Below are positions 1,773 to 21,478 of a DNA stretch of 64,000 nucleotides, piece after piece. The DNA is from Alphaproteobacteria bacterium (GTDB lineage Bacteria; Pseudomonadota; Alphaproteobacteria; UBA9219; RFNS01). Under the pieces are notes generated by a model. The model was given only the letters and a program-made list of their open reading frames with translations. It was not told where the DNA came from and did no database searches. Positions within the stretch are counted from its first letter, which is position 1. Each line of letters opens with the position of its first letter. The DNA lies in assembly GCA_037200005.1 (NCBI GenBank), contig JBBCGY010000001.1, positions 42,416 through 106,415 of the forward strand. The letters run 5' to 3'. Both the position numbers and the translations under genes were made by a program.

Positions 1773-1825
1773 ATAACCGACATTGAGAAATTGATTTCGT
1801 CGCAGGCTCCGCAAGGTGTGGGTCG

Positions 1826-1872
1826 TGTGACGTTGTCACACGCCACCCCCTCTGTGTGACGCGTCACACAGA
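1826..1872. promoter_or_regulatory. two adjacent palindromes sharing a TGTGAC..GTCACA core (candidate operator pair)
   Basis: gtgtgacGTTgtcacac (7-bp arms) and ctgtgtgacGCgtcacacag (perfect 20-bp palindrome), 12 bp apart, between the SprT-like gene and hsdM. Confidence 0.4.
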
Positions 1873-2221
1873 GATAGCAGGGGCTTCGCCCCATGCACCC
1901 CCATATTCATTTCAGCGAGGATATTCACATGACTATTTCGCAAAAATCACGGTTATCAACCAAGTCCTTTCTCAGCATCCGCGAGAGAAAGACGGAATGC
2001 AGTATCATTCCGTCAATATTGAGTCTCCAGTGTTGCCGACGCCGATCAATGCCGCGCTATTCCAGGACAAGGAGGATGACAGCAAGTTCAACCTCATATG
2101 GAACAGGCCGGAGCAGCAGGGACTCAAGGCCGAAGCCACCCTAAGCGTCGCGGGTCAGCCCCAATCCCGCCGCTTCTCCGGCCCGCGCGCAACGCCGTAG
2201 GTAGTAACGGAGAGGACGACA

Positions 2222-2251
2222 TCCCCGCAGGACGCTCGTCCTGCGGGGATT
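2222..2251 (+). terminator. perfect 14-bp-stem hairpin (atccccgcaggacg/cgtcctgcggggat), terminator- or operator-like
   Basis: Perfect inverted repeat about 80 bp upstream of the hsdM start, with no clear T-tract after it. Confidence 0.35.
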
Positions 2252-2331
2252 AATCGGAAAATATCGAACGAATGCCCTATGGCGCAATCCAGAGGCCGCC
2301 ATTATAATGCGCGGAAACTAAGGGATAGCAT

Positions 2332-3892
2332 ATGGCGCAAGCGAAAAAGGCAAAGAAACAGGGCGGCAATGGGGCTAATTTGGGGTTTGAAGCCCAGATG
2401 TTCCAAGCCGCCGACAAAATGCGCGGCAGCATGGATGCCAGCGAATATAAGCATGTCGCCCTGGGACTGATTTTCTTGAAATATATCTCCGACGCTTTTG
2501 AAGCCAGACATGCGACTGTCAAAGCGGACGGCGAGGACCCGGAAGACCGCGATTTTTATATCGCGGAAAATGTCTTCTGGGTTCCCAAAGAGGCCCGATG
2601 GAACCATCTACAAGCGAATGCCAAGCAACCGACCATCGGTAAATTGATTGATAATGCCATGCTGGCGATTGAGTCGGCGAATGCCTCTTTGAAGGGGGTT
2701 TTGCCAAAGGATTATGCCCGCCCAGCCCCTCAACAAACAAATGCTTGGCGAGCTGATCGACCTTATCAGCGGCATCGGGATGCATGAGGGCGCAGGCAAG
2801 AGCAAAGATATTCTTGGGCGCGTTTACGAATATTTCCTCGGTGGCTTTGCCGGAGCCGAAGGCAAGCGCGGCGGTGAATTTTATACGCCGCGTTCCGTAG
2901 TCATGCTGCTGGTTGAAATGCTGGAGCCTTATAAAGGCCGCATCTATGACCCTTGCTGCGGTTCGGGCGGCATGTTCGTTCAATCGGAGAAATTCGTGCT
3001 GGCGCATGGCGGGCGCATCGGCGACATCGCCATCTATGGCCAGGAAATGAATAACACCACATGGCGCTTGGCCAAAATGAATATGGCGGTGCGCGGCATT
3101 GACACGGATATTCGCTGGAACAATGAAGGCAGCTTCCATAAAGATGAATTCAAAGACTTGAAGGCCGATTATATCCTCGCCAATCCACCGTTCAACGTAT
3201 CGGATTGGGGAGCGGATCGCCTGCGCGAAGATGTGCGGTGGAAATACGGCTTGCCGCCTGCTGGCAATGCCAACTACGGCTGGCTACAGCATATCATCCA
3301 CCATTTAGCGCCGAATGGCGTTGCCGGCGTTGTGCTGGCCAATGGCAGCATGTCTTCCAATCAGTCCGGTGAAGGCGAAATCCGCAAGGCTATGATTGAA
3401 AAGGATTTGGTCGATTGCATGGTGGCCTTGCCAGGGCAGCTATTCTATTCAACCCAGATTCCGGCCTGCCTGTGGTTCTTGGCGCGGAACAAAAAAACAT
3501 CGCATCCGCGCAATCGCAGCGGCGAAGTCTTGTTCATTGATGCCCGGAAAATGGGTGTCATGATTGACCGCACCCGCCGTGAGTTAACGGAAGATGACGT
3601 TAAGAAGATCGGCGCTCTCTATCATGCCTGGCGCGGTGAAAAAGACGCCGGGAAATATGCCGACATTCCTGGTCTTTGCAAGGCGGCAAAGTTGGATGAA
3701 GTCTCCGGTCATGGCTTTGTCCTCACCCCTGGCCGCTATGTCGGCAGCGAAGCGGTGGAAGATGACGATGAACCGTTTGAGGTGAAATTTCCCCGACTGG
3801 TTGTTGAGTTGGAAAACCAGTTTGAAGAAAGCGATAAACTCACTGCCCAAATTCGGCGGAATCTGACTTTGTTGGGAGGGTCGCAAAAATGA
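2332..3892 (+). pseudogene. hsdM: Type I restriction-modification methyltransferase subunit HsdM, interrupted by a frameshift near 2725-2740
   Basis: The HsdM N-terminal domain is in one frame (2332-2787). The AdoMet-MTase core ([15 protein letters not shown]) continues in another frame (2714-3892). The junction reads ...LPKDYARPA / [15 protein letters not shown] within a C-rich run. Confidence 0.8.
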
Positions 3893-4380
3893 CGCTCAAC
3901 CACAAATACATCAAACAGATATTGATTTCCTTGCGGGACAATCCAGCTCCCAGCATGGACAGTTATGATCTGGCAAAAATTTGTGGCGTTGATATGAACC
4001 ATATTGATGAATTGGCGTTTGGTAAGTTTGTGACCCAACTGCGCCTGCTAAAGGATATGGCATGCATAGACTGTCCCGTGGACAATCTCGGCTTTAGCCA
4101 GAACATCAATCGCCACTGGATAATTTGTCGCACCACCTATCGGCTCTCCAGCCAGGGGCACAGTTTTCTGGACACAGAAAACAAAAATACCCTGTTCAAT
4201 AAGGGAAAGGCGTTCTTCTTTTCAGCCTTTACGGAAGCTGGAAAGCGTTTTCTGATTCAGGCAATAACGGCAATTTTTATTGTTGTGCTGGCTACCGTTG
4301 CCGCAAACGCTGGTCTTTTCAAAATTTCGAGTTCGCATGGCCTAGCTAATCTCAAAAATCCAAAAGAGCGAGGGCTATGA
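3889..4380 (+). CDS. hypothetical membrane-anchored protein (163 aa) embedded between hsdM and hsdS
   Basis: Overlaps ATGA with the hsdM stop and again with the hsdS start. It has a soluble, possibly winged-helix-like N-terminal ~100 aa and one C-terminal TM helix ([20 protein letters not shown]). GC is low. Confidence 0.55.
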
Positions 4381-5696
4381 TGTCTCTTTCGGAATGGCAA
4401 ATATTATCATTTAAAGAAGCTGGTGTTCAGTTGATTGATTGCGATCACAAAACACCCCCGGCATCTTCTTATGGGTATCCATATGTTACGATCCCTCAAA
4501 TCAAAAATGGGCGCATAGATGTGTCTGAAGCAAGGCGGATTACCGCAGAACATTTCAAAGAGTGGACAAGGAAGGCCAATCCAAAGCCCTTTGACGTTGT
4601 CTTATCTCGTAGATGCAACCCAGGAGAAACTGCCCATGTCCCTGCGGGGCTAGAGTTCGCTCTTGGACAAAATCTCGTTTTGTTGCGTGCAAATGGTGAA
4701 AAGGTATTTCCGCGATATTTACGATGGCTTACGCGGGGAGTGTTATGGTGGGAACAGATATCAAAGTTTATTAATGTGGGCGCCGTTTTCGATAGTTTGA
4801 GATGTGCGGACGTTCCAAATTTTCAATTTCCAATACCAGCACTGCATGAACAAAAAGCAATTGCTTCAATATTGACCGCACTGGACGATAAGATCGAACT
4901 GAACCGCCGGATGAATGCGAACCTGGAGGCGATGGCGCGGGCGGTGTTCAAAAGTTGGTTTGTCGATTTCGACCCCGTCCGCGCCAAAATGGCAGGCCGC
5001 CAACCCTTCGGTATGAGCGCGGCTACCGCTGCCTTGTTCCCCTCGCGCCTCGCCCCCTCCGAACTCGGCGATATTCCGGAGGGGTGGTCGGTCGATCAAA
5101 TCGGGAACGCGGTCACCGCCGTTGGCGGCAGCACCCCCAGCACCGAAAATCTAGAATATTGGACTGATGGGCAGTATGCCTGGGTAACGCCAAAAGACCT
5201 CTCTGCACTGAAATCGCCTGTTTTGTTCACAACGGAACGCAGGATAACAGATGCAGGAATCCGTGTTATCAGTTCCGGACTTCTGCCGTCGGGTACTGTT
5301 TTGATGTCTTCCCGTGCGCCAATCGGCTATATCGCAATCGCCGAAACGTCCGTTGCCATCAATCAAGGCTTCATAGCCATCGTTTGTGACAAAGAGCTTC
5401 CCAATTTATACGTCTGGCAATGGCTGCACGCCAATCTTGACATGATCAAAAGCCATGCAAACGGCTCAACCTTTCAGGAAATCAGCAAAGGCAGTTTCCG
5501 GCCTCTCCCCTGCATCATTCCATCAGCAAAGGTTCTCGAAAAATTTCAGGCAATCGTTTTGCCTATCTGGCAAAAACTCGTTGCGAATGAAAAAGAGTGT
5601 CTGGGGCTAGAAAAAACGCGCGACTACCTTCTTCCCAAACTAATCTCCGGCGACATCCGCATCCGCGACGCCGAGAAATTTATGGAGGCTGCATAA
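4377..5696 (+). CDS. hsdS: Type I restriction-modification specificity subunit HsdS (two target-recognition domains)
   Basis: Two low-GC variable domains flank a conserved high-GC central repeat (LDDKIELNRRMNANLEAMARAVFKSWFVDFDP). A similar C-terminal conserved helix follows (LPKLISGDIRI). Confidence 0.9.
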   Translation: MMSLSEWQILSFKEAGVQLIDCDHKTPPASSYGYPYVTIPQIKNGRIDVSEARRITAEHFKEWTRKANPKPFDVVLSRRCNPGETAHVPAGLEFALGQNLVLLRANGEKVFPRYLRWLTRGVLWWEQISKFINVGAVFDSLRCADVPNFQFPIPALHEQKAIASILTALDDKIELNRRMNANLEAMARAVFKSWFVDFDPVRAKMAGRQPFGMSAATAALFPSRLAPSELGDIPEGWSVDQIGNAVTAVGGSTPSTENLEYWTDGQYAWVTPKDLSALKSPVLFTTERRITDAGIRVISSGLLPSGTVLMSSRAPIGYIAIAETSVAINQGFIAIVCDKELPNLYVWQWLHANLDMIKSHANGSTFQEISKGSFRPLPCIIPSAKVLEKFQAIVLPIWQKLVANEKECLGLEKTRDYLLPKLISGDIRIRDAEKFMEAA

Positions 5697-7150
5697 TGAA
5701 TCGCTGGGTAAATTCGTTCCAGAACCATCCTTTCCAAAAGCCATGGAAAGATATTGTGGAGCTTTCAGAAAAGATTGCTCTTCAAGATGAGACTGTCGCA
5801 ACTGACGTCCAAGAGCTTGCGCGTCTAAAAAAGGTTATAACCTATGTTGGCCAGTTAATAGGTGCAGCTGATCCGGAATTGATTCCATTAAGCATATGGA
5901 GTTCTTTTCAGGACCAGGCCACGCAGTGTGCAGATCAAATCAATCAGTACAACAGCAATAAGAACATTACTCACCTCAGCAACGCTAATAGCAATCTAGA
6001 TAATTTATTGACATATGTTCGCCCTTATGTGGTTTCTGCAGAGGGGGCGGCTCAGGCGGCAATGTCTGCGTTCATAGTGTATTCCGACACCATCAATACA
6101 CAGACCGATCTGATACAATCAAAAACCCAAGCCTCTGTTAACGGTACGCAGGCGAACAAAGAAAAGTCTGATGAAATATACAAAGAAATAGAGCAGTCAA
6201 AGCACAACATTCAACAATTGGAACAAAAATTTTTGATCGGCGATAGCAATGAGAAGAGCCTCCAGGAAAGAATGCAGATTCTTCTTGGGGAAGCCCAGGA
6301 GTGGAATAAAATAATTGGTGAGTTTCACAAACGGCTGACAAGCGGCAATGAACAAGAAAGCGCAATTTCGCTACAAATCGAAGAAGCAAAAAATAAAGCT
6401 ACTAAGGATAAGGAGGCTATAGAAAGTGCCCTTCAATTATCTGAAAATTTAATCAAAGACCTCAAAGAGTTTTATGAGCGAGTTTTTGGCAAAGAAGGCA
6501 GTGACGGAAACGTCATGGTCGGTCTAAAGCAAGAATTGGATAACCGCATTAAAGAGCTTGATAATTTTAAAATTAATCAAGGAACAGCCTACAATACCTT
6601 ATTTCAAAAAATTGAATCTCTACTGCCCGGAGCAACAAGCACTGGTCTTGCCAGTGCGTATAGAGAATTAAGAGACTCTTTTGCTGCGCCCATCAATATC
6701 TATACGCTAGTGTTTTGCTTCACCCTAGCAGTGATGTTTTTTGTTGGCTTGTGGGGTGTTGACTTCGGTGATGATGTGGGATTGAACAAGATGCTCGGCA
6801 GTCTCTATCACAAACTCCCACTTTTACTGCCCATCCTGTGGCTGGCAATTTTTGCTTCCAGACGAAGAAGCGAAAGTCAAAGGTTGCAACAAGAATATGC
6901 CCATAAAGAGGCGCTCGCAAAATCATTTCAAAGCTTCAAAAAACAAATTGATGCATTGCAGGAGAAGGACGAGGTCCTTACCAAGAAACTCCTGGATGCT
7001 ATGATCGGTGCCGTGTCCCATAATGCATCACAAACACTGGATGGAAAACATGGAGATAAAATTCCAACGCAAGAACTTCTAGAGGGAGTTATCAAGAAAT
7101 TTCCTGCGCAAAGCTTTTTTGAAAAATTAGTCGATAAAATCCTTAAATAG
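5696..7150 (+). CDS. coiled-coil protein with two C-proximal TM helices (485 aa), unknown function, embedded in the RM operon
   Basis: The ATG overlaps the hsdS stop (TAATG). Long heptad-like K/E/Q-rich segments are followed by two hydrophobic helices (IYTLVFCFTLAVMFFVGLWGV; LPLLLPILWLAIFA) and a ~100-aa tail. GC is very low (~40%). Confidence 0.6.
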   Translation: MNRWVNSFQNHPFQKPWKDIVELSEKIALQDETVATDVQELARLKKVITYVGQLIGAADPELIPLSIWSSFQDQATQCADQINQYNSNKNITHLSNANSNLDNLLTYVRPYVVSAEGAAQAAMSAFIVYSDTINTQTDLIQSKTQASVNGTQANKEKSDEIYKEIEQSKHNIQQLEQKFLIGDSNEKSLQERMQILLGEAQEWNKIIGEFHKRLTSGNEQESAISLQIEEAKNKATKDKEAIESALQLSENLIKDLKEFYERVFGKEGSDGNVMVGLKQELDNRIKELDNFKINQGTAYNTLFQKIESLLPGATSTGLASAYRELRDSFAAPINIYTLVFCFTLAVMFFVGLWGVDFGDDVGLNKMLGSLYHKLPLLLPILWLAIFASRRRSESQRLQQEYAHKEALAKSFQSFKKQIDALQEKDEVLTKKLLDAMIGAVSHNASQTLDGKHGDKIPTQELLEGVIKKFPAQSFFEKLVDKILK

Positions 7151-7233
7151 GGAACAATGTGAATGGTCTGTTAGGGGCAAAAAACTCGTCACATCCAACT
7201 TATCAAGTACGTTCCTCGGAAAGAGCTACTCAC

Positions 7234-8319
7234 ATGACCTTTGACCGCAACACACCCTACAACGATCTTCCGCTTTTGCCACCGGCGCAGATCGACCTGG
7301 AAACAAAGCCTATTCTCAAAAAGGCGATCACGGCGAATATCGCGCTTGCCAAGCTGTTCGACGCGGGAAAGTTGATTCCCAATCAGGCGCTTCTGGTTCA
7401 GGCGATTGGGTTGCAGGAAGCCAAGCTGTCCAGTGAAATCGAGAATATCGTCACGACCAATGACGATCTTTACCGCGCTTTCGCGGATGAGGGCGTGCAT
7501 TCCAGCCCCGCAGCCAAAGAGGTTCTGTTTTACAAGGACGCGCTCTGGAAAGGCTATAACGCGATCAAACTGGAAAAGCGCCCGCTCTCCACGCGCCTTT
7601 TTGAAGATACGTTCCGCATTATCAAGCAATCCTCTGACGGCATCCGGCGTTTGCCGGGCACGAAATTATCGAACCCGGCAGGCGAGATTATCTACACGCC
7701 GCCCGAAGGCGAAAATCTTTTGCGTGACAAGCTCTCCAATCTCGAAAAATTTCTTTACGCCGAAGACGGGCTTGATCCTTTGATCAAAATGGCCGTCATG
7801 CACTATCAATTCGAGGCTATTCATCCCTTCACCGACGGCAATGGGCGCACGGGGCGCATTCTCAATCTTTTATATTTGATCGAGTGCGGGTTGCTGGAGA
7901 TTCCGGTTTTGTATCTATCCCGCTACATCATCGAACACAAAACGGATTATTATCTGGGACTGCGCGGCGTAACCGAGGGGCAAAATTGGGAATCGTGGAT
8001 TCTCTATATTCTCGATGCGATTGAAGTGACGGCGCAGATGACCAGAGATCGGATTCTTCGCATTCATTCTTTAATGGACAAGACGGCGGAGGCGGTCAAA
8101 GCCCAGGCTCCCAAAATCTATTCCAAAGACCTTATTGAGGTGATTTTCCGCCAACCCTACTGTAAAATTCGCTTTTTGGAGGAGGCAGGGATTGCCCAAA
8201 GGCAGACCGCCTCCACTTATCTCTCCAAATTAGAGGCTTTGGGTATTTTGGAGTCCGTAAAGGCTGGACGCGAGAAATATTATATTAATCCGGCATTCTT
8301 TAACCTTTTGGCAGAATGA
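7234..8319 (+). CDS. Fic family protein (class II with SxxxEN inhibitory helix motif), C-terminal winged HTH
   Basis: Fic active-site motif HPFTDGNGRTGR. The N-terminal helix carries SSEIEN, matching the (S/T)xxxE(G/N) auto-inhibition motif. The typical start is M-x-FDRNTPY..LPxLPP. Confidence 0.85.
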   Translation: MTFDRNTPYNDLPLLPPAQIDLETKPILKKAITANIALAKLFDAGKLIPNQALLVQAIGLQEAKLSSEIENIVTTNDDLYRAFADEGVHSSPAAKEVLFYKDALWKGYNAIKLEKRPLSTRLFEDTFRIIKQSSDGIRRLPGTKLSNPAGEIIYTPPEGENLLRDKLSNLEKFLYAEDGLDPLIKMAVMHYQFEAIHPFTDGNGRTGRILNLLYLIECGLLEIPVLYLSRYIIEHKTDYYLGLRGVTEGQNWESWILYILDAIEVTAQMTRDRILRIHSLMDKTAEAVKAQAPKIYSKDLIEVIFRQPYCKIRFLEEAGIAQRQTASTYLSKLEALGILESVKAGREKYYINPAFFNLLAE

Positions 8320-8503
8320 CATGGTTATTTTCTGCATGTTTATGAAGTGCTTAGGTGATATGTTGTTTTGATCGACACATCGTTCCAACATGTCGAAAAA
8401 ATCAGAAAATTTCGACATGTTGAGGCTTGTGCCCTTGTTGGTTCTAAAATGCGCTTAACCGAGGCCAAACAGGCAACGGCATCGCAGTCCAAAGAGAAAA
8501 TCG

Positions 8504-11500
8504 ATGGTCGCTGACATTCAATACACCCAGCCGGAACCGAATTATGACGGATTCCGCGAAGCGCATGTTGAAGAAGCAACTTTCGATTGGCTCTCTGGGC
8601 TTGGCTGGACACTCGCGCATGGGCCGGATTTGGCACCGGAAGGCAAAGCCCCGGAGCGGGCCAGTTATGGCGACGTGCTGTTGTTGGGGCGGTTGAGGAC
8701 AGCCTTGGCCGCGATCAACCCGCAACTCCCCGCCGATGCGATTGACGACGTGGTGCGTAAGATTATCGCAGTCGAAATGCCGTCTTTGGTCGAAGAAAAC
8801 CGGCGCTTGCATAAACTGATGGTCGATGGCGTGGCTGTGCAATACATGCAGGCCGACGGCACGATCAAAAACGACATCGCGTGGCTGATCGACTGGGAAA
8901 ACAAAAAGAACGATTGGCTGGCCGTCAATCAATTCACGGTCATCGAAGAACGCAACAATCGCCGCCCCGACGTGGTGATGTTTATCAACGGTTTGCCCCT
9001 TGCCGTTATTGAATTGAAGAACGCGGGAGACGAAAACGCGACAATCGAAGGCGCGTTCCGCCAGACGCAAGCTTACAAGCAATTGATCCCTTCTCTGTTT
9101 CGCACGAACGGCATACTGATTATTTCCGACGGACTGAAAGCCCGCATCGGCAGCCTGACCGCAGATTATGAGCGTTTCATGCCATGGCGCACGGTGGATG
9201 GGGCCGGTGTCGCGGCCAAAGGAACGCCCGAATTACACACAATGATTCACGGCGTTTTTGAGCAAGGGCGTTTTCTGGAGTTATTGCGCCGGTTCACCGT
9301 GTTTCAAAGCAACGGCAAAGATATTTTCAAAATCGTAGCAGGATATCACCAGTTCCACGCCGTAAAGCTCGCCGTTGCCAGCACCATCGACGCAACGGCC
9401 AGTGAAGGAAATCGCAAAGTCGGCGTCATCTGGCATACGCAAGGATCGGGCAAAAGCCTGTTGATGGCATTTTATGCGGGCAGCGTGATTGCCAATCCTG
9501 CGATGGCCAATCCGACTCTGGTTGTGCTGACCGACCGGAATGATCTGGACGACCAGCTTTTTTAACACTTTCAGCCTATCTCGTGATCTTATCCGCCAGA
9601 CGCCCGCGCAAGCGGGAGATCGCGATGAATTGCGGAAGCTTCTGGCGGTATCATCTGGCGGCGTTATCTTTACGACCATTCAAAAATTTCTGCCCGCTGA
9701 TAGTGAAAAAACTTTCCCGCTGTTGACTGACCGCAAGAATGTCATCGTCATCGCCGATGAAGCGCACCGCAGCCAATATGGCTTCAAGGCCAAGTTGGAT
9801 AAAAAGTCGGGCGAATTAGCTTATGGTTTTGCGAAACACCTGCGCGATGCGCTGCCGAATGCGTCCTTCATTGGCTTTACAGGAACGCCTATTGAGAAAG
9901 CAGATGTCAATACGCCCGCCGTATTCGGCGATTATATTGATGTCTATGATATTCAACGCGCGGTCGAAGACGGCGCGACGGTGCCAATCTATTACGAAAG
10001 CCGCCTAGCCAAACTCCAGCTTGACGAAGAGGAAGTCAAAAATCTTGATGCTGAGGTCGAAGAACTGACCGAAGACGAAGAATCCAGCGAGCGCGAGCGT
10101 AAGAAAAGCAAATGGTCGCGCGTTGAAGCCCTGTGGGAGCCGAAACACGCTTGGCTCAAGTAGCCGCCGATATTGTTCAGCATTTTGAGAACCGTATCAG
10201 CGCCTTAGACGGCAAAGGCATGACCGTATGCATGAGTCGCCGTATTTGCGTGGCGCTCTATAACGAGATTATTAAATTACGGCCCGCATGGCATTCAGAC
10301 GATGACGCGCAAGGCGCTATCAAGATTGTGATGACGGGCAATATCGCCAACGATCCGCCTGAATGGTTGAAACATACGGGCAGCAAGGCGCGCCGTGATT
10401 TCCTGGCAAAGCGGGCGCGCGACGCTAAAGACCCGCTAAAACTTGTTATCGTTCGTGATATGTGGCTTACGGGCTTTGATGCGCCCTGCATGCACACGAT
10501 GTATGTCGATAAGCCGATGCATGGTCATGGCTTGATGCAGGCCATTGCCCGTGTAAATCGCGTATTCCGCGACAAGCCAGGCGGCTTGATCGTTGATTAT
10601 ATCGGGATTGCCCATAATCTGAAACAAGCTCTCTCTATTTATTCCCCCGGCGACCGCGAAGAAGTCGGCATTGACGAGCAGCAAGCCGTCGCAGAGATGA
10701 TGCGCCGCTATGAAATCGTCCGGGATATGTTTTATGGATTCGATTATATGCGCGCGCTGCACGGCACACCGGCTGAACGCTTAGTGCTGATGGCCGAGGC
10801 TCTGGAGTGGATTCTCGATTTGCAGCAACGTGAAGCTGCAAAAGAACAGACCGAACAAGCCAGGAAAGAGGTGCGCCGCAAATTCTCAGACGCCGTTGTT
10901 GGCTTATCGCGCGCCTATGCGCTGGCCGCAACCTCGCCAGAAGCGGGGAAAATTCGTGATGAAGTCGGTTTCTTCCAGGCTATTCGTGCAGCCCTGGCAA
11001 AAAATGAGCCGGGCAAAGGTAGCACACAGGCGGAAATCGATGTGGCCGTCCAACAAATGGTCAGTCGTGCCGTGGTGTCAACGGAGATTGTCGATATTCT
11101 GGCGGCGGCAGGCATTAGAACCCCGGATATATCCATCCTCTCAGATGAATTTCTGGCAGAAATTCAAGGCATGAAGAAGCGTAACCTTGCATTGGAAGCC
11201 TTACAGAAACTCATCAATGGAGAAATAAAATCCCGCATCAAATCGAACGTGGTGCAATCTAAGAAATTCAGCGAACGACTGGAAGCCGCCGTCCGGCGCT
11301 ATCATAACAACGCTATAACTGCCGCGCAGCTTTTGGAGGAGCTGATTGCCATCGCAAAGGATATTAAAGCTGACCGCGAACGAGGAGAAGAACAAGGACT
11401 TAGCGAAGAGGAAATCGCTTTTTATGATGCTCTGGCTGAAAATGAAAGCGCATTGCAGTTGTTGGGCGATGAGAAATTACGAGTGATTGCTACTGAACTG

Positions 11501-11680
11501 GTTGTCTCCGTTCGCAATAATGTGTCTGTTGACTGGATGCACCGCGATAGCGCCCGCGCCAAGTTGCGCATCGAAGTCAAAAAGATTCTCAAGAAATATG
11601 GCTATCCGCCAGATTTACAGGATGCAGCGGTGCAACTGGTGTTGCAGCAGGCCGAAGTTTTGGCCCCACTCTGGGCATAA
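8504..11680 (+). pseudogene. hsdR: Type I restriction endonuclease subunit HsdR, split into three ORFs by two frameshifts (~9560 and ~10140)
   Basis: Three successive overlapping ORFs (8504-9565, 9540-10163, 10133-11680) together cover a ~1058-aa HsdR: N-terminal nuclease region, DEAD-box helicase motifs ([12 protein letters not shown]) and C-terminal domain. The first shift is in a T7 homopolymer (DQLFF|NTFS). Confidence 0.85.
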
Positions 11681-11772
11681 CAATCGCTGACGGCGATCTT
11701 TGGAATTCTATGTAAGAGGCTGCAACAGGTAAGGCCAGATTATGACCGAGAGGAACGAAGATTCTTAAACAA

Positions 11773-12903
11773 TCAAAGCGCCAGCCGGGGCCGGATTAGC
11801 GACAAAGGCCGGGCAGTGGAAAGCTGGAGGCCAACAGCTTCGTTTGGAACATTGGAAAAATCGGTAATAAGCGGCAGCATGGCGTTAGGGCCAAGGGCGC
11901 GTGGTGAGGCACCTAGTTCTTTAAGAGCGGAAACAATTTCCGGTTCATTTAGCGCATGAATGCGCATAAGGGGTTGCGTAGTGTCAGGAATCCATTTCCT
12001 GCGCGAGACTTCATCGCGGCCCGTCGAGATAAGTGCCGCGACCACGTCCTTGAGTTTGTCGCCTTTCGGCAGATTGCCGTTGCTGGTGATTTGAGCGCGG
12101 ACAATCGGCTCGCCCAGGAAGGTCGAAATGGCTTCCGTAAAACTGGCGGCGATTTTCTGATTGCCGTCCTCACTTTGCCAATTCGCCAGGAACACATTTG
12201 GCAAGCTGGAGTCTTTGCCGGGTTTCGCGGCGAAGTCCGCGAGCTGGATTGCAACTCGTGAGCGGCCCGTTTCAATGGGCGCATCGCCGATAAATTCCAG
12301 AACGGCGCTATCGTCCGGCGCTCCCATCGTCGCACCGAGTTTCTTGAAGATGCCGGTCATGGCCGCATTGCCGCCCGCATATTCGCCGACGCGGCCGCGC
12401 GAGACGAGGCCATAGGGCGAATAGCCTTGTTCGCGGCTGACGGATCGCCGGATTTTCTCGTAGATAAAATGCGAGCCAAGTCCAATGCCATTCGGGTATT
12501 CCGCGCTTTTTGTGCGATTACGGAATTCCTGGGATAGTTCCGGCGACACATAGGTATCTTCGCCATAGATAGCAGGATAATGGCGGAAATCCCGGCCATT
12601 GCGTTCCGTGAGAACGGTCGGAAACTCGATTGAGCCACCGGCGAGTTTGGGGCTGCAATTTTCCCACTCCACGATGGCGAAATAAGCCTGAATTTTATTT
12701 TTCTTGATGGCCTCGATAACTTTGCCGAATTTGGCGTTATCAGCGGACGCTCCATGCGTCACGGCTTCACTTTCGACGATTCTATAAAGAATCTCATCAA
12801 GCGCCATATGATGAACGACGTCCGTACCGTTCATGCGCACGATGCTGGCTTTGGCGTTTCCCGGCAGCAGACCGGGCATATTATCGAGCGCAACGGAAGA
12901 CAT
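11773..12903 (-). CDS. uncharacterized conserved protein (376 aa), paralogue of 24000-25298
   Basis: Shares HYPAIYGEDT, YPNG(I/L)GLG, GxVSxGRVxEYxG and KxGAT motifs with the 24000-25298 ORF. It overlaps the upstream XRE regulator gene by 4 bp, so the two are co-transcribed. Confidence 0.6.
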   Translation of the reverse strand: MSSVALDNMPGLLPGNAKASIVRMNGTDVVHHMALDEILYRIVESEAVTHGASADNAKFGKVIEAIKKNKIQAYFAIVEWENCSPKLAGGSIEFPTVLTERNGRDFRHYPAIYGEDTYVSPELSQEFRNRTKSAEYPNGIGLGSHFIYEKIRRSVSREQGYSPYGLVSRGRVGEYAGGNAAMTGIFKKLGATMGAPDDSAVLEFIGDAPIETGRSRVAIQLADFAAKPGKDSSLPNVFLANWQSEDGNQKIAASFTEAISTFLGEPIVRAQITSNGNLPKGDKLKDVVAALISTGRDEVSRRKWIPDTTQPLMRIHALNEPEIVSALKELGASPRALGPNAMLPLITDFSNVPNEAVGLQLSTARPLSLIRPRLAL

Positions 12904-12905
12904 GA

Positions 12906-13556
12906 TTATATTTTCCCCTTGTCGTCGGGGATCGAAGCATTTTCCCAGAATGATTCAAATTGCTCGACATATCTTTCGGCCAAGGGCTTGGAGTGTATCG
13001 AAACGACTTCGACATTATGATCGCTGCGATGCACCGCCTGGGCGATATAGTCATTATAGACGTAATAGGGAATGAGGATTTTCGTCGTCTTATCCAGCCA
13101 GCGATATTCGCAATAGCTGGCGGAGAAATTATAGTCGCCATCCAGGATAAGAACGCGGGCGTCAAGATTCGGAAGCTTGCTCATTCTTTCCATATGCTCG
13201 GTCGCATAATCTTGCGCATAGGAAAGGGTCTTGCCGTCGCTGGAATTAAACTGGCGAATGCGTCCACCGTCTTTCAGCGTTTCGTATATATGATCGAGGA
13301 ATTGTCGGTATCCGGCTTTGCCCGAAAAAACCCTGACTTGGTTTCTCCGCATCCGAACGCCCTCGTCATCCAGGAATTCGACGCCGTGCCGGTCGAAAGC
13401 ATTGGTTATGCTGGCGATGGTCTTCTCATGCGGTTGTACCGTATCGGCCTCGATTTTGCTCACGGTCACGCGGGTAAGCCCGGCCTCCCTAGCCAAGTCT
13501 TCCGCTTTCCATTCCAGTAAGCTGCGCGCTGCGCGAATTTGACGCCCGGTAATCAT
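12906..13556 (-). CDS. XRE-family HTH transcriptional regulator with ~150-aa C-terminal domain
   Basis: N-terminal HTH_XRE (IRAARSLLEWKAEDLAREAGLTRVTVSKIE). It is the first gene of a two-gene minus-strand operon. Confidence 0.7.
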   Translation of the reverse strand: MITGRQIRAARSLLEWKAEDLAREAGLTRVTVSKIEADTVQPHEKTIASITNAFDRHGVEFLDDEGVRMRRNQVRVFSGKAGYRQFLDHIYETLKDGGRIRQFNSSDGKTLSYAQDYATEHMERMSKLPNLDARVLILDGDYNFSASYCEYRWLDKTTKILIPYYVYNDYIAQAVHRSDHNVEVVSIHSKPLAERYVEQFESFWENASIPDDKGKI

Positions 13557-14820: not shown

Positions 14821-17800
14821 ATGGTGGCACCTGCGAAGAAATTTCACGAAGCGAACGGCGAACTCACCAATGAGGCAGGGGCAACGCGACCGCCGCTCTC
14901 GAGGAACAGCCTCTGGCGGACACTGCGCCCCGGGATCTCGGTGGGAGTAAGCCTCGCGGCAGTCGTCGCTTGCGAAAGCGGCGAACCCAACGCTTCAAAT
15001 GACAACATCGTTTCGATTTCCCAAGCGATAGGCTCTGCGACAATCTATAGCTTGCCTACCAATGTTTTGATGCCCAATGCCATCAATAATCAAAATCTCA
15101 TTGTGGGCCAGGGTCTGCCTTCGATCTATGATGCCAACACGGGAACATTTAGTAGCCTTGAAGTAAACCAGCCTTCGGGGGCGGTCACTTCCTATGCAAT
15201 TAGCAATGCCGGTCACGTTGTCGGCAATTCATTCAATGTTGGGCCGGTTTCCAATTCGGCGTTCATTTCACAGGGCGGACATTTGTCCGATCTATACGCC
15301 GGCAACAACAACGGGGTGACCAGCGTCGCTTACGGCGTCAACAATTATGGCCAAGTCGTCGGCACGATGCCGGTGACGGTCAACGATGCGAACAATAGTC
15401 CACATCCTTTCACGCATGCGTTCTCGTGGCAGGGCAGCGTTACAGACCTTACACCGAACTACTATGGAAATTCAGCCGCCTATGGCATCAACGATGCTGG
15501 GCAGATCGTGGGAACGATAGGAACTGCGGGGGTCAAGTGGCAGGGCGGATCGTCAAGCACGCTGCCGAGCGGCACCAGCACGCCCGCCATGATCAACAAT
15601 GTCGGTCAGATCGTCGGGACATATAGTTCAGGCGGTTCGTCGCACGCTTTCCTTGTGCAGAGCGGCACCCTGACCGATCTCGGAGCCATACAGGGAAGCA
15701 CACCTGTGAGGATCAACAACAAAGGACAAGTTACGGGCGGCTTCTACAACACGGGTGCCGGACAATATTACCCGAGCGTCTGGCAGAATGGCGTCGTGGT
15801 TACGATTCCCACTCTGTCGGGCATTCCCGCAGGCTGGTCTATCACGTCGATAAACGGCATCAATGACAGCGGAACCGTCGTAGGGCAAGGCACGCTTTCG
15901 GGTTCTTCACGGGGTTTTTACCTAACTTCGCCGCAGCTTCTGAACTACGCCATTGCCGGAAAGCCCTACGATCCGAAAGCGAATGGTGGTGAGGATTCGG
16001 CGTCAACCCCGACAGACGATCTATGTGGAACTCATGGCATGTGTGTGCCCAACGCGCAATTGCTGTCGGCCAGCTTGAATTTGAACGATACGCCGATTGG
16101 GTATCAGCCGCCCAAAGGGCCACCAGCCTATATCCGGCTTACATATAATCATCGTGACAGTGTCGCGCCCAGCAGCACTTCCTCGCATGTTGGGCCAAAC
16201 TGGACTCTGAATGTCATTTCTTACATTCAGGATGATCCGGCCAGCCCGGGCCAGAGCGTCACGCGCAACGTGGCGGGCGGCGGTATCGTCGACTACACTT
16301 TTGAGGCAGGGCAGTTCAATACCACCACGGGTGCATTCGGGCCGGAGAAGCAAACCGGGGCGATCTTGAAACGGACTCCCGCGACAGGGTTCAGCGCCAG
16401 TGCTTCCTATGAGCTTTCCTTTCCCGATGGGGCCAAGCAAATATTCTCCTACCCGGATGGAAGCTTCAATTATCCGCGCCGCGCATTCCTGACGGATATC
16501 GTTGATGCCTCAGGCCAGGGCCTGCATTTTGGCTACAATTATCTTCAAGGAACTTTCGGCGCGATCAATTGCACGCCGGGATGTCCGCAACTGCAATCAG
16601 TTTCTGATGCTAATTTCCGTGCAACAAACTTCGTCTACGGTGACGCATCTAATGTCTTGCGCGTGACGCGGATTAATGACCCGTTCGGGCGTCACGCCGA
16701 TTTAGCTTATGATGGCAGCGGACGGCTTTCGTCAATCACGGATGTGATCGGCATTCAATCGTCTTTCACCTATGACACCACCGACCCTACTTTCATCAAA
16801 AAGCTAACGACACCCTATGGCGATAGCAATTTCGTCTTTGGGCAAGATACGGCGACGGATCGTCGTTGGCTCACACTCTCCGATGCCGTGGGCAATACGG
16901 AAAAAGTGGAATACCGGGGCAGCAGCGCCAGCGGCATAGCGGCGTGCGACAAAAACACGAGCGATGCGTCGTGCAGTGTCTCGACCTCCGTGCCGACAGG
17001 CATGCCTAACGGCATCAATAACGCCGATCTCGACAAGCGCAACACCTTTGTCTGGAACAAATGGATGTATGCGAATGGCTATGGCAGCGATTACACGCAG
17101 GCGAATGTTACCCATTGGCTCAAGGACGGTGCGGGCAATCCCGTGGGGATTCCGGAAAGCGTCAAGCCGCTGTACGAATCCCGCATTTGGTATAATTATC
17201 CCGGCCAGAACGATCCTAGCACCCCAGGAACCCTGTCTGTGCCGAGGGCGACGGGCCGCGTGATCACCGATCCGCTTTACGGGCAAGCGCCGCAGAATCA
17301 GGTTTACCAAAGTCAATATAACAGCCTCGGCAAGCCCACCTTGACCGTCGATCCCTACAAGGTTTCAGGCAACAACAATGAAGGCCGAACTACACGCATG
17401 ACCTATGATGCCTCCGGCGTCGATCTTTTGACGGTGGAACAGAAAACCGGCAGCGGAACGCCGGGGACATGGGCGACGATTGCTTCCTACGTCTATACCG
17501 ATCCGACAGAACAGCCCACATCGATCCACAAACCGATCCGCTATACCGACGCGGCGGGGCAAACTTATAAATTCAAATACAATGGCGACGGCCAATTGAT
17601 CTATGCCGCCAATCCCTACAACGATACGACGTATAATGAATATCATCCGTCCGGCAAGCTCCTGCGGACGACCATGCCTGTGCCGAGCGTAAACTGGAAT
17701 ACCATCGATTATGGAACCGATATTAACGGCGCGCCGACGGGGGCGAGCAACAGCAGCGCCCTAAGGGACACCGCCATTACCTACGACTCCGCCGATCGTC

Positions 17801-20202: not shown

Positions 20203-20207
20203 TCCTA

Positions 20208-21478
20208 TGAAAAAGTTTACTCTATTGCTTGTCGCGCTTTGTAGTCTGACAATGTTACCGGCTCATGCCGCTGACCAAGACTCCAAACCACCCGTCATTG
20301 ATATTCCTGCCACGCGAAAAGAGGCGGAGTCTGGAGATGCTCGGGCTCAATATAATCTGGGCATAGCTTATCTCAACGGTTACGGGGTGAAGAAAAATAA
20401 AGATGAAGCTATTGAATGGATTTACAAAGCAGGGAAGAACAATGATGCCCTCGCAATATATTTCTTGGGCAGCGCATATCATGATGGCGACCTTTTGCCA
20501 CAAGACTACGCCAAGGCTATGAAGTGGTATCACAGGTCCGATGAATTATACGGCAGTCCCCTTGCGCAGAATATGCTTGGCGTGATGCACGAAAACGGTC
20601 AGGGGGCTCCACAGAATTATGAAGAAGCGGCTAGGTGGTATCGCAAAGCTGCCGAGAATATTTACGCACCGGCTCAATCCCATCTTGGATTCCTATACTA
20701 CGCTGGACGCGGCGTTCCTAAGGACGATCAAAAGGCTCTATATTGGCTTAAGAAAGCAGCCATACAAAACGATGCGCCAGCAAAGCTTATGCTAGGCATT
20801 ATGCACTATAAAGGCGAAGGAGTGGAAAAGAATTACGTTAAAGCTGTCAGCTATTTTCGCGAAGCCGCAGACGTCGGAATATCGATAGCTGAACGATATT
20901 TGGGAAATATGTATTACCACGGCGAAGGCGTTTCCAAGGATGAAGCCCAGGCTGTGTCTTGGTGGCGCAAAGCCGCCGAACAAGGGGATAGGGAGTCGGA
21001 AAAGATCATAGGTGGTATGTACTATTATGGCACAGGAGTGTCGAAGGATTTTTCCCAAGCCGTTTTATGGTGGCAAAAAGCTGCGGAAAAGGGTGATGTC
21101 GATGCTCAATGCAACTTGGCGAAAGCTTACTATCATGGAGAAGGTATAGGAAAAGATGAAACTCAAGCTGTGTTATGGTGGCGGAGGGCCGCGGCACAAG
21201 GACATGGAGAATCCCTCCTTTATTTAGGACAAGCGTATTTTAGTAGCATAGGCGTATCGCAAGATGATGTGCAGGCTTATATATGGCTAAGCTTGGCGGC
21301 TACAAGAAATCAGTCGTCAGCGGTTGCAACACTCACGGAACTCGAAAAGTCCATGACGCCGGAACAAATCGCTGAAGCCAGAAAACGCGTGGCAGAATGG
21401 AAACCCAAGCCTGAGCCAAAGCCTGCCCCAATAGGGCCAATACCCGAAATTCTAAAAGAAGTCCGTGAAGATTTATGA
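20208..21478 (+). CDS. Sel1-repeat protein with signal peptide (candidate periplasmic immunity protein for Rhs-CT1)
   Basis: Signal peptide MKKFTLLLVALCSLTMLPAHA. At least 9 Sel1 repeats (AQYNLGIAYLNGYGVKKNKDEAIEWIYKAG...). Sits immediately downstream of the rhs toxin tip. GC ~45% versus ~62% for the rhs body. Confidence 0.8.

What the first reader, a model, noticed from the sequence alone, without database searches (positions are those of the whole stretch)
5696..7150. 485-aa coiled-coil + two-TM protein embedded between hsdS and fic: candidate abortive-infection/membrane effector
Its start overlaps the hsdS stop (TAATG), so translation is coupled. GC is ~40% in a ~60% GC background. Most of the length is K/E/Q-rich heptad coiled coil. 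Two adjacent hydrophobic helices (res ~335-385) and a charged tail follow. I recognise no known enzymatic motif. Type I R-M operons are known to host anticodon nucleases (PrrC/RloC), Abi genes and Fic/Doc between hsdS and hsdR. A long coiled-coil 2-TM protein in that slot is not a described member as far as I can tell.
Basis: partly seen in the sequence, partly recalled or inferred. Interest (0 to 1): 0.75.

Follow-up and report, generated by a model that had tools for sequence, protein, structure and literature searches.

The report
Membrane coiled-coil gene inside restriction operon
A real, widely conserved but uncharacterised 484-residue membrane-anchored helical protein sits between hsdS and hsdR of a Type I restriction operon; its relatives recur in that slot and in prophage defence hotspots, making it a good untested anti-phage candidate.

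Summary
The gene is at 5696-7150 (484 aa). Its ATG overlaps the hsdS stop (TAATG). GC is 41.5% against about 57-59% in the window. A hydrophobic hairpin lies at residues 333-388.

The protein belongs to a large family of constant architecture, with at least 546 clusters at 50% identity. It matches nothing in Pfam, NCBIfam, PADLOC or the PDB.

In 14-16 of 69 evaluable genomes the gene lies in exactly the hsdM-hsdS-X-hsdR slot, usually translationally coupled to hsdS. These cases fall in at least 9 separate clades and several Type I lineages. The remaining copies are solitary, GC-poor insertions, including prophage morons.

Profile comparison shows that the C-terminal membrane module (residues ~264-484) is a divergent DUF6161-like domain. 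A sister family with that module occupies the P2 prophage gpA-gpQ (old/tin) defence hotspot in E. coli. It also occupies the Q-holin moron slot of a Providencia phage.

The N-terminal bundle is family-specific and the middle coiled coil is variable.

The best reading is a stand-alone defence protein: a cytoplasmic sensor and stalk joined to a conserved membrane-hairpin effector, possibly guarding Type I R-M in the way PrrC or Ronin do. No function has been tested. The family is uncharacterised, but the kind of element is known.

The parts
2332..3892 (+). hsdM, read in two frames (2332-2787 HsdM_N; 2714-3892 N6_Mtase). A 1-nt insertion lies in a C run near 2727.
   Evidence: Pfam HsdM_N 1.4e-25 and N6_Mtase 3.3e-108. 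Frameshift read directly from the sequence.
3889..4380 (+). Extra embedded ORF of 163 aa between hsdM and hsdS, with a hydrophobic C-terminus
   Evidence: Weak DUF2513 hit (1.1e-3, below cut-off). phrog_585 4.4e-9.
4377..5696 (+). hsdS, intact (439 aa)
   Evidence: Methylase_S 3.4e-28, two stretches.
5684..5688 (+). GGAGG ribosome-binding site inside the end of hsdS, 7 nt before the ATG
   Evidence: Read from the sequence. Comparable purine-rich sites precede the ATG in other R-M-embedded loci.
5696..7150 (+). The gene in question: a 484-aa membrane-anchored helical protein
5696..6100 (+). Residues 1-135: family-specific N-terminal helical bundle, the putative sensor or partner-binding domain
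   Evidence: pLDDT 92-97. Invariant W4, R43, K46, D59, A97, N98, D102, P110, Y129. Not covered by alignments to the sister family.
6101..6595 (+). Residues 136-300: variable coiled-coil stalk
   Evidence: Highest column entropy. Long helices H115-181, H189-216 and H221-264. Only coiled-coil-type weak hits.
6596..6691 (+). Residues 301-332: conserved pre-membrane collar (ESLLPGATSxGLAxAY)
   Evidence: Entropy 0.95 for residues 301-320. Aligned to TTSKGLAGAF / TTTGLAGSF of the DUF6161-like sister proteins.
6692..6763 (+). Residues 333-356: hydrophobic helix 1
   Evidence: Kyte-Doolittle 19-residue windows up to 2.24.
6764..6808 (+). Residues 357-371: short acidic loop, predicted periplasmic
   Evidence: Shorter here than in most homologues; the alignment shows a 9-residue deletion.
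6809..6859 (+). Residues 372-388: hydrophobic helix 2, with conserved P375, P379 and W382
6860..6955 (+). Residues 389-420: most conserved segment (RRRSExxRLQQEYAHKEALAKSFQSFKKQI), a cytoplasmic juxtamembrane helix
   Evidence: Entropy 0.84-0.90. Invariant R390, R391, R396, E400, Y401, H403, K404, E405, S410, Q417. Aligns to the DUF6161-like sister family.
6956..7147 (+). Residues 421-484: C-terminal helices carrying the conserved NASxTLDGKHGDKxP motif
7159..8319 (+). SoFic-type Fic protein, a further embedded cargo gene. The likely start is the ATG at 7234.
   Evidence: PADLOC SoFic 2.7e-115. NCBIfam SoFic 484 bits, below its 550 cut-off. Fic_N, Fic and SoFic-like_C domains.
8504..11680 (+). 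hsdR, read in three frames (8504-9565, 9540-10163, 10133-11680). Two 1-nt indels: a T6 run at about 9556, and GG to G at about 10135.
   Evidence: ORFs. Sequence. Each piece matches intact HsdR of other loci at up to 1e-148.

Best explanation
The gene encodes a stand-alone, horizontally mobile defence-type protein built from three parts.
1. A family-specific cytoplasmic N-terminal helical bundle (residues 1-135). I infer it is the sensor or partner-binding domain.
2. A fast-evolving coiled-coil stalk (~136-300). I infer it serves as spacer and oligomerisation element.
3. A conserved DUF6161-like membrane module (~264-484). It comprises a 'PGATSxGL' collar, a proline-kinked hydrophobic hairpin with both ends in the cytoplasm, and a highly conserved basic juxtamembrane helix. 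I infer it is the effector.

Proposed mechanism (inferred, not shown): in the resting state the N-terminal domain and stalk hold the membrane module inactive. A phage cue releases it. The hairpins then oligomerise and perturb the inner membrane, by depolarisation or leakage. That aborts or excludes infection.

When the gene is embedded after hsdS and co-translated with it, the cue may be interference with the HsdM/HsdS complex by anti-restriction proteins, as for PrrC and Ronin. Solitary and prophage copies must sense something else, or act in trans.

Shown here: gene reality, architecture, conservation pattern, recurrent embedding, mobility, and homology of the C-terminal module to prophage-hotspot proteins.

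Inferred: defence function, membrane perturbation, and the trigger.
For: Family and architecture:
- The family is large with constant architecture.
- The model is all-helical with a confident N-terminal bundle.
- The strongest conservation lies immediately before TM1 and after TM2.
- The N-in/C-in hairpin topology follows from 8 K/R after TM2 and conserved segments on both flanks.

Association with Type I R-M:
- 14 strict plus 2 variant of 69 evaluable genome loci have the hsdM-hsdS-X-hsdR order.
- In most of them the hsdS stop and the ATG overlap or abut, with an SD-like site upstream.
- Embedded members are scattered over at least 9 clades.
- HsdM and HsdR distances correlate at rho 0.93, but X and HsdM only at 0.41. 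X is therefore swappable cargo, not a core subunit.
- Other cargo sharing the slot is defence-typical: SoFic, Schlafen/AlbA_2, RhuM-Fic, Abi_2, KAP NTPase.

Mobility:
- GC is lower than the flanks in 72 of 77 loci, by 10.8 points on average. GC3 is also low.
- One copy is a moron between portal and terminase in a Mu-like prophage. Another lies next to an integrase and ArdA.

C-terminal module and its relatives:
- hhalign of the family alignment against E. coli P0408 gives 94.8% probability, E 4.8e-8.
- Against P0491 it gives 95.1%, E 3e-8. P0491 passes the DUF6161 gathering score.
- All 6 P0408 places lie between gpA/DinI and the portal gene gpQ of P2-like prophages. PMC9122126 describes this as the old/tin anti-phage hotspot.
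- The Providencia phage homologue lies between antiterminator Q and the holin.
- A DUF6161 family was independently flagged as a putative defence family by a protein language model (10.1101/2025.01.08.631966).

Precedents:
- Ronin is a membrane effector held by HsdMS and released by anti-restriction proteins (10.1101/2023.04.06.535777).
- Defence genes are known to be embedded in Type I R-M (PMC11411939; 10.1101/2024.01.29.577857).
Against: - No experiment on any member or on DUF6161 was found.
- About 80% of copies are solitary. Their immediate neighbours are mostly ordinary genes; only a handful of 115 neighbours hit defence models. Classical defence-island enrichment therefore looks weak.
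- TM2 is short (~16 residues, two prolines). Only TM1 passes a standard hydropathy threshold, so a monotopic or re-entrant anchor rather than a pore is possible.
- pTM is 0.42, so domain packing, and hence autoinhibition, is not supported by the model.
- The weak X-HsdM co-evolution does not favour a tight, specific HsdMS-X complex.
- There was no match in 50,697 cultured phage genomes or 72,556 plasmids with the window protein.
Confidence: 0.45

Rival explanations
1. Dedicated guard of Type I R-M (PrrC/Ronin-like). The protein is co-translated with HsdS, binds HsdM2S1 and stays latent. Phage anti-restriction proteins that attack the complex release it, and it kills or arrests the cell through the membrane.
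For: - It occupies the same slot as prrC, between hsdS and hsdR (established knowledge).
- The stop/start overlap with hsdS is conserved across distant taxa and several Type I lineages.
- Ronin shows that a membrane effector can be sequestered by HsdMS.
- In this window hsdM and hsdR carry frameshifts while hsdS and X are intact.
Against: - About 80% of copies have no R-M gene within 10 kb.
- The sister family sits in P2 hotspots, which lack Type I R-M.
- X tracks HsdM phylogeny poorly (rho 0.41, against 0.93 for HsdM-HsdR). Near-identical R-M backbones carry X alleles only 30-46% identical.
- The window's hsdM is itself frameshifted, which would remove the supposed partner.
Confidence: 0.2
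2. Non-abortive exclusion. A membrane-anchored protein that blocks phage genome entry, or an early membrane-associated step, at the inner membrane. This would be superinfection exclusion in the manner of T4 Imm or P22 SieA, without killing the cell.
For: - Relatives are prophage morons in positions typical of exclusion genes: the P2 old/tin locus, the lambdoid Q-S slot, and a Mu-like prophage.
- The most conserved surface is membrane-proximal.
- The family was found only in diderm lineages among the 80 loci.
Against: - Almost the whole protein is cytoplasmic. The exposed loop is about 15-25 residues and poorly conserved.
- Known exclusion proteins are small and lack long cytoplasmic stalks (own knowledge).
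Confidence: 0.15
3. Not a defence gene. The protein would be a mobile-element or envelope accessory, for example an addiction or toxin-like membrane protein, a lysis-timing factor, or a membrane scaffold. It merely lands in permissive, non-essential slots such as R-M operons and prophage hotspots.
For: - Neighbours of solitary copies are mostly housekeeping or MGE genes.
- PMC9122126 notes that the P2 hotspot also carries non-defence cargo such as partition systems and toxins.
- The Providencia phage copy lies directly upstream of the holin.
- Several copies are disrupted: L010, L026, L069 and L079.
Against: - Precise, repeated, translationally coupled insertion after hsdS in at least 9 clades is hard to explain by permissiveness alone.
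- Payne et al. report that curated embedded genes are largely defence-related.
- The co-embedded cargo is defence-typical.
Confidence: 0.2

Closest known systems
Pfam DUF6161 (PF19658), and the enterobacterial/phage sister family (phrog_34659 and phrog_30912; e.g. Providencia phage PSTCR8lys QPB12492.1 and E. coli P0408)
   Same: The C-terminal module is shared: a T-S/T-x-G-L collar, two hydrophobic helices, an 'LW...A-S/T-K' exit and a [E/D]Y..K....K[S/A]Y helix. hhalign gives 94.8-95.1% probability, E 3e-8 to 4.8e-8. Overall size (415-490 aa) and the preceding coiled coil also match. Members sit in variable defence or moron slots.
   Different: The window protein and its close family do not match the DUF6161 HMM even at E of 10 or less. 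The N-terminal bundle is unrelated. H403, E405 and other residues invariant in this family are not kept in the sister family. No similarity was detected to the Aliivibrio DUF6161 protein of PMC9122126 Table S6. DUF6161 has no known function.
PrrC / RloC anticodon nucleases
   Same: They occupy the same genomic slot between hsdS and hsdR of Type I R-M. RloC-like partial linkage, with some copies embedded and many solitary, resembles this family's distribution.
   Different: The target has no ABC-ATPase or nuclease domain and no sequence or profile hit. It is membrane-anchored and all-helical.
Ronin (HsdMS + RonA), from 10.1101/2023.04.06.535777
   Same: A membrane-acting effector is genetically tied to hsdM/hsdS. 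The proposed release is by anti-restriction proteins.
   Different: RonA is 61 aa with one TM helix, is always linked to hsdMS, and occurs in loci lacking hsdR. Here the protein is 484 aa with a large cytoplasmic part. hsdR is normally present and intact in embedded loci, and most copies are unlinked to R-M.
Genes embedded in Type I R-M, BREX or Hma (TgvAB; the HEC and PDC candidates of Payne et al. 2024)
   Same: The 'guilt-by-embedding' logic is the same: a non-R-M gene nested in a Type I operon, with many non-embedded homologues elsewhere.
   Different: The target matches none of the PADLOC v2 models, including PDC-S/M. TgvAB and the HECs are nucleases, ATPases or RNases, not membrane proteins.
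2-TM effectors of signalling defence systems (SLATT domains; CBASS, Pycsar and retron TM effectors)
   Same: A two-helix membrane element is the presumed killing or arrest device.
   Different: There is no SLATT hit; the only trace is SLATT_1 at E 3.9 on a sister protein, which is noise. There is no associated cyclase, SMODS or RT gene. The protein has a large fused cytoplasmic domain instead of a nucleotide sensor.

Membership tests
Pfam DUF6161 (PF19658) | Match to the Pfam HMM at or above the gathering score (27 bits) | tested here: not met
   No DUF6161 hit for the window protein, P0050 or P0062 even at E of 10 or less. None of the listed homologues carries a precomputed Pfam domain.
Pfam DUF6161 (PF19658) | Profile-level homology of the 2-TM module to a bona fide member | tested here: met
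   P0491 scores 28.6 bits against DUF6161, above the 27-bit cut-off. hhalign of the family alignment A1 against P0491 gives 95.1%, E 3e-8, 196 columns, residues 264-484. Against E. coli P0408 it gives 94.8%, E 4.8e-8.
PHROG phrog_30912 / phrog_34659 (phage proteins of unknown function) | HMM match to the PHROG profile | tested here: inconclusive
   phrog_30912 scores 1.6e-4 for the window protein, 6.5e-10 for P0050 and 1.2e-7 for P0062, covering the C-terminal half only. phrog_34659 scores 9e-3 to 4.5e-6.
PrrC / RloC anticodon nucleases | N-terminal ABC-type ATPase (Walker A/B) plus a C-terminal anticodon-nuclease domain | tested here: not met
   No ATPase or nuclease family hit in Pfam, NCBIfam or PADLOC; the only hits are coiled-coil noise far below the cut-offs. 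No P-loop is present in the sequence.
PrrC / RloC anticodon nucleases | Location between hsdS and hsdR of a Type I R-M operon | tested here: met
Ronin RonA | A ~61-aa single-TM peptide obligatorily linked to hsdM/hsdS in loci lacking hsdR | tested here: not met
   The protein is 484 aa with two hydrophobic helices. hsdR is present in the embedded loci. About 80% of copies are unlinked.
SLATT 2-TM effector domains | Match to a Pfam SLATT_1-6 model, with association to SMODS, SLOG or cyclase genes | tested here: not met
   No SLATT hit for the target. No such neighbours were found.
Pfam Abi families (Abi_2/AbiD-F, Abi_alpha, etc.) | Pfam HMM match | tested here: not met
   An Abi_2 gene does occur as separate cargo next to the homologue in L077.
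PADLOC phage-defence candidates (PDC-S/M; HEC) of Payne et al. 2024 | Match to a PADLOC-DB v2.0.0 model | tested here: not met
   Only JetC at E 0.026, which is coiled-coil noise. The sister proteins likewise show only LmuB, LeoBC or ZorA-tail coiled-coil noise.
SMC / MCP / other coiled-coil families | Score above the family cut-off, with head or signalling domains present | tested here: not met
   SMC_prok_B scores 16.9 bits against a cut-off of 567. TrlF scores 19.6 against 350. PDB profile hits are coiled-coil segments only.
Anti-phage defence system (functional class) | Experimentally shown protection against phage | not testable with these tools
   No experimental report was found for this family or for DUF6161.

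The most novel reading that the evidence does not exclude
The DUF6161-like hairpin with its conserved collar is a new, widespread membrane effector module. It is fused through a rapidly evolving coiled coil to interchangeable cytoplasmic sensor domains.

The branch found here has specialised in riding Type I R-M operons, co-translated with HsdS. There it acts as a second-line 'anti-anti-restriction' guard that converts attack on, or failure of, the R-M complex into membrane shutdown. That would be a large-protein counterpart of Ronin and PrrC, spread across Alpha-, Beta- and Gammaproteobacteria and Campylobacterota.
Probability: 0.18. Interest if true: 0.8.

Novelty: new variant of a known kind. 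Interest (0 to 1): 0.55.

Why it matters
If the family is defensive, it adds a very widespread single-gene system. The census gives at least 546 clusters at 50% identity in this branch, plus an enterobacterial sister branch present in many E. coli P2-like prophages.

It would also assign a first function to DUF6161.

Its recurrent, translationally coupled position after hsdS would give a tractable model for how Type I R-M operons recruit second-line modules. It would also allow a test of whether 'guarding' of R-M complexes (PrrC, Ronin) is a general strategy rather than two isolated cases.

The E. coli sister protein offers an immediately testable entry point in a standard host.

Tried and rejected
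Family and structure searches on the target:
- Pfam, NCBIfam, PADLOC and PHROG scans gave only coiled-coil noise, plus weak PHROG hits.
- phmmer and hmmsearch against PDB sequences gave coiled-coil noise only.
- The AFDB Foldseek library was unavailable.

Searches for relatives:
- A search with the C-terminal module alone, looking for other architectures, returned only fragments of the same family.
- tblastn against cultured phages and PLSDB plasmids gave no match for the window protein.
- blastn of the Serratia homologue against E. coli genomes gave no match.
- IMG/VR gave only 7 loci, mostly at the ends of prophage calls.

Partner genes:
- All-vs-all clustering of plus or minus 5 neighbours found only the R-M genes recurring.
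- SoFic adjacency recurs once (L063), which is too rare to call a partnership.

Other ideas dropped:
- A metal site from ExxH (E400/H403) plus DxxH (D449/H452). H403 and E405 are not conserved in the sister family.
- The promoter/terminator scan of 1800-12000 was no better than shuffles.
- ClyA-like and colicin-like pore-former folds found no support in the fold searches.
- The Campylobacter rlo gene literature yielded no usable description.
Full report
**1. The observation**

The ORF is real and lies where stated: 5696-7150 on the + strand, 485 codons with the stop, so 484 aa.

The purely mechanical ORF begins at a GTG at 5597. Three points fix the start at 5696:
- Every homologue starts MSRW/MNRW at the position of this ATG.
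- GGAGG lies 7 nt upstream.
- The ATG shares its A with the hsdS stop, giving TAATG.

Composition. GC is 0.415 and GC3 is 0.416. The window is 0.569 overall and 0.589 outside the island. The flanking R-M genes are 0.50-0.54, with GC3 of 0.51-0.64.

Hydrophobic segments are at 333-356 and 372-388.

The AlphaFold model (52-sequence alignment, mean pLDDT 76.7) is entirely helical. Residues 1-~180 are modelled at pLDDT above 90 as a compact bundle running into a long helix. Only ~140-300 is the variable, coiled-coil-like part.

The 'charged tail' is the best-conserved region of the protein.

**2. The locus**

From left to right the locus reads:
- a SprT-like gene;
- hsdM, in two frames;
- a 163-aa ORF;
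- hsdS;
- the target;
- a SoFic-type Fic gene (PADLOC SoFic, 2.7e-115);
- hsdR, in three frames.

The three frame breaks are single-base indels in short homopolymers. hsdS, the target, SoFic and a 5.4-kb RHS gene nearby are intact. The identical protein is recorded on a 1.8-Mb MAG contig. I therefore cannot decide between real decay and long-read error.

**3. The family**

The word-indexed search found more than 1,210 homologues. All listed ones are about 470-500 aa and aligned end to end. None carries a Pfam domain, and all are named 'hypothetical'.

The exhaustive profile search gave 546 clusters at 50% identity with E below 1e-30, and 2,315 below 1e-10.

Direct scans of Pfam, NCBIfam, PADLOC v2 and PDB sequences found nothing but coiled-coil noise. 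PADLOC v2 contains the PDC candidates that Payne et al. derived from embedded genes.

Conservation is bipartite:
- a moderately conserved N-terminal bundle, with invariant W4, R43, K46, D59, A97, N98, D102, P110 and Y129;
- a highly variable middle;
- two near-invariant stretches hugging the hydrophobic hairpin. These are ESLLPGATSxGLAxAY before TM1 and LWLxxFASKRRSExxRLQQEYAHKEALAKSYQSFKxQI after TM2, followed by NASxTLDGKHGDKxP.

Both flanks of the hairpin are conserved, and 8 K/R follow TM2. This argues for an N-in/C-in hairpin with a short external loop. TM2 is short and carries two conserved prolines and a tryptophan.

**4. Genomic context**

A scan of one genome per species returned 80 loci. 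They come from Alpha-, Beta- and Gammaproteobacteria, Campylobacterota, Verrucomicrobiota and Desulfobacterales.

Of the 69 loci with enough upstream sequence, 14 have the strict order hsdM-hsdS-X-hsdR and 2 more have a variant Type I context. In most of these the hsdS stop overlaps or abuts the ATG, and an SD-like site lies inside hsdS.

Embedded members fall in at least 9 separate clades of the family tree. They accompany several Type I lineages.

HsdM and HsdR distances correlate at rho 0.93, but X and HsdM only at 0.41. For example, R-M backbones with 75-87% identical HsdM carry X alleles only 32-46% identical. X is therefore a swappable or fast-evolving cassette that repeatedly occupies one precise slot. 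It is not a co-evolving core subunit.

The other cargo sharing the slot varies and is defence-typical:
- SoFic in this window;
- Schlafen/AlbA_2 and RhuM in L004;
- RhuM-Fic in L005;
- Abi_2 in L077;
- KAP NTPase plus HTH-M78 in L024;
- DUF4268/PD-(D/E)xK in L029.

The remaining ~80% of copies are solitary. All-vs-all clustering of neighbours found no recurrent partner. Their immediate neighbours are a mix of housekeeping genes, integrases, resolvases, HipA, a restriction enzyme, reverse transcriptases and PDC-S11. One copy is a moron between portal and terminase of a Mu-like prophage. Another lies beside an integrase and ArdA.

In 72 of 77 loci the gene is more than 3 GC points below its flanks, by 10.8 points on average.

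**5. Distant relatives**

PHROG scans gave weak to moderate hits of the C-terminal half to two phage families of unknown function.

A marginal tblastn hit led to Providencia phage PSTCR8lys QPB12492.1 (466 aa). It has the same layout: helical N-terminus, coiled coil, T-T-T-K-G-L collar, two hydrophobic helices, and LWFSWLATRQ...EDYEFKSSISKAYEGYRRE. It belongs to phrog_34659 (9.5e-76). It lies between the antiterminator Q gene and the holin, the classical lambdoid moron slot.

Its homologues are common in Enterobacterales. The E. coli representative P0408 was found, in all six places read, between gpA/DinI and the portal gene gpQ of P2-like prophages. Rousset et al. describe that interval as the old/tin hotspot of anti-phage systems (PMC9122126).

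Profile-profile comparison links my family alignment to these relatives:
- P0408 at 94.8% probability, E 4.8e-8, residues 303-438;
- P0491 at 95.1%, E 3e-8, residues 264-484.

P0491 passes the Pfam gathering score for DUF6161. The target's C-terminal module is thus a divergent DUF6161-like domain, although the target itself does not hit that HMM.

The N-terminal bundle is not shared. The architecture is therefore a variable head, a coiled coil and a conserved membrane module.

The literature holds two mentions of DUF6161:
- a '2TM' protein in a Vibrionaceae prophage hotspot (PMC9122126 Table S6), which shows no detectable similarity to my family;
- a Pseudomonadota family flagged by a protein language model as a putative new defence family (10.1101/2025.01.08.631966).

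I found no experiment on either.

**6. Structure searches**

**7. Mechanism**

Established here:
- a conserved, mobile accessory gene;
- a cytoplasmic helical head and stalk;
- a conserved membrane hairpin module;
- recurrent, translationally coupled embedding after hsdS;
- homologous modules in prophage defence and moron slots.

Inferred:
- The protein is a stand-alone anti-phage device.
- Its membrane module is the effector (depolarisation, leakage or blockade).
- Its head is the sensor.

Confidence in this composite explanation is 0.45. Within it, I rate defence in the broad sense at about 0.6 and membrane perturbation as the mode of action at about 0.35.

The more specific PrrC/Ronin-like guard model is attractive because of the slot, the coupling and the Ronin precedent. 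It is weakened by the solitary majority, by the P2-hotspot relatives and by the weak co-evolution with HsdM. I give it about 0.2.

Non-abortive exclusion (about 0.15) and a non-defence MGE or envelope role (about 0.2) remain open.

**8. Novelty and verdict**

The idea of defence genes nested in Type I R-M is established: PrrC, TgvAB, Ronin, and Payne et al.'s census. This family is not among the described or catalogued ones and has no assigned function. Its link to DUF6161 and to prophage hotspots has not, as far as I could find, been made.

I class it as a new variant of a known kind. It is a good, experimentally tractable candidate rather than a surprise. Interest is 0.55.

Noticed in passing
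window 2332-3892 and 8504-11680: hsdM carries one single-base indel and hsdR carries two, all in short homopolymers: a C run at about 2727, T6 at about 9556, and GG to G at about 10135. Meanwhile hsdS, the target, SoFic and a 5.4-kb RHS gene are intact. This could be real decay of the R-M enzyme with retention of its cargo, or long-read assembly error. The source contig is 1.8 Mb.
   Followed up: partly
window 3889-4380: A second embedded gene lies between hsdM and hsdS. It is 163 aa with a weak DUF2513-like N-terminus (phrog_585, 4.4e-9), a hydrophobic C-terminus and GC 0.45. The related island L004 has RhuM plus a 188-aa ORF in this position instead.
   Followed up: partly
window 7159-8319; L063 8698-9771: The SoFic-type Fic gene follows the target in this window. 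In Haemophilus parainfluenzae (L063) a SoFic homologue (1e-83) lies directly upstream of the target homologue, with no R-M present. Two adjacencies in 81 loci is too few to call a partnership, but the recurrence was not explained.
   Followed up: partly
window 14821-22668: There is a large RHS/YD-repeat toxin gene of 1,793 aa. It is followed by a Sel1-repeat protein (20111-21478) and a second ORF (21475-22668) that repeats the C-terminal RHS core nearly verbatim but ends in a different tail. This looks like an orphan or displaced toxin-tip cassette array.
   Followed up: no
window 11773-13556 (- strand): Immediately after hsdR, on the opposite strand, lie a 376-aa protein with no family hit and a 216-aa HTH_3 (XRE-type) regulator. 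They may form another small cassette at the edge of the island.
   Followed up: no
L001 7223-8001: The closest non-embedded relative (68% identity) is preceded by a 57-aa remnant matching the HsdM N-terminus (3e-9) and by a 198-aa ORF whose stop overlaps the target's start. An ArdA anti-restriction gene and an integrase lie just upstream. This looks like a decayed R-M context on a mobile element.
   Followed up: partly
L010, L026, L069, L079: Several family members are split or truncated. One example is Campylobacter concisus L079, where no intact ORF remains inside an otherwise intact hsdM-hsdS-hsdR operon. This suggests frequent loss.
   Followed up: no
L092-L097 (E. coli P2-like prophages), about 7000-7750: The small gene between DinI and the DUF6161-like protein in the P2 hotspot differs between otherwise identical prophages: 225 aa on the + strand, or 111 aa (DUF8087) or 141 aa on the - strand. 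None hits PADLOC. Whether any of them works with the membrane protein is unknown.
   Followed up: no
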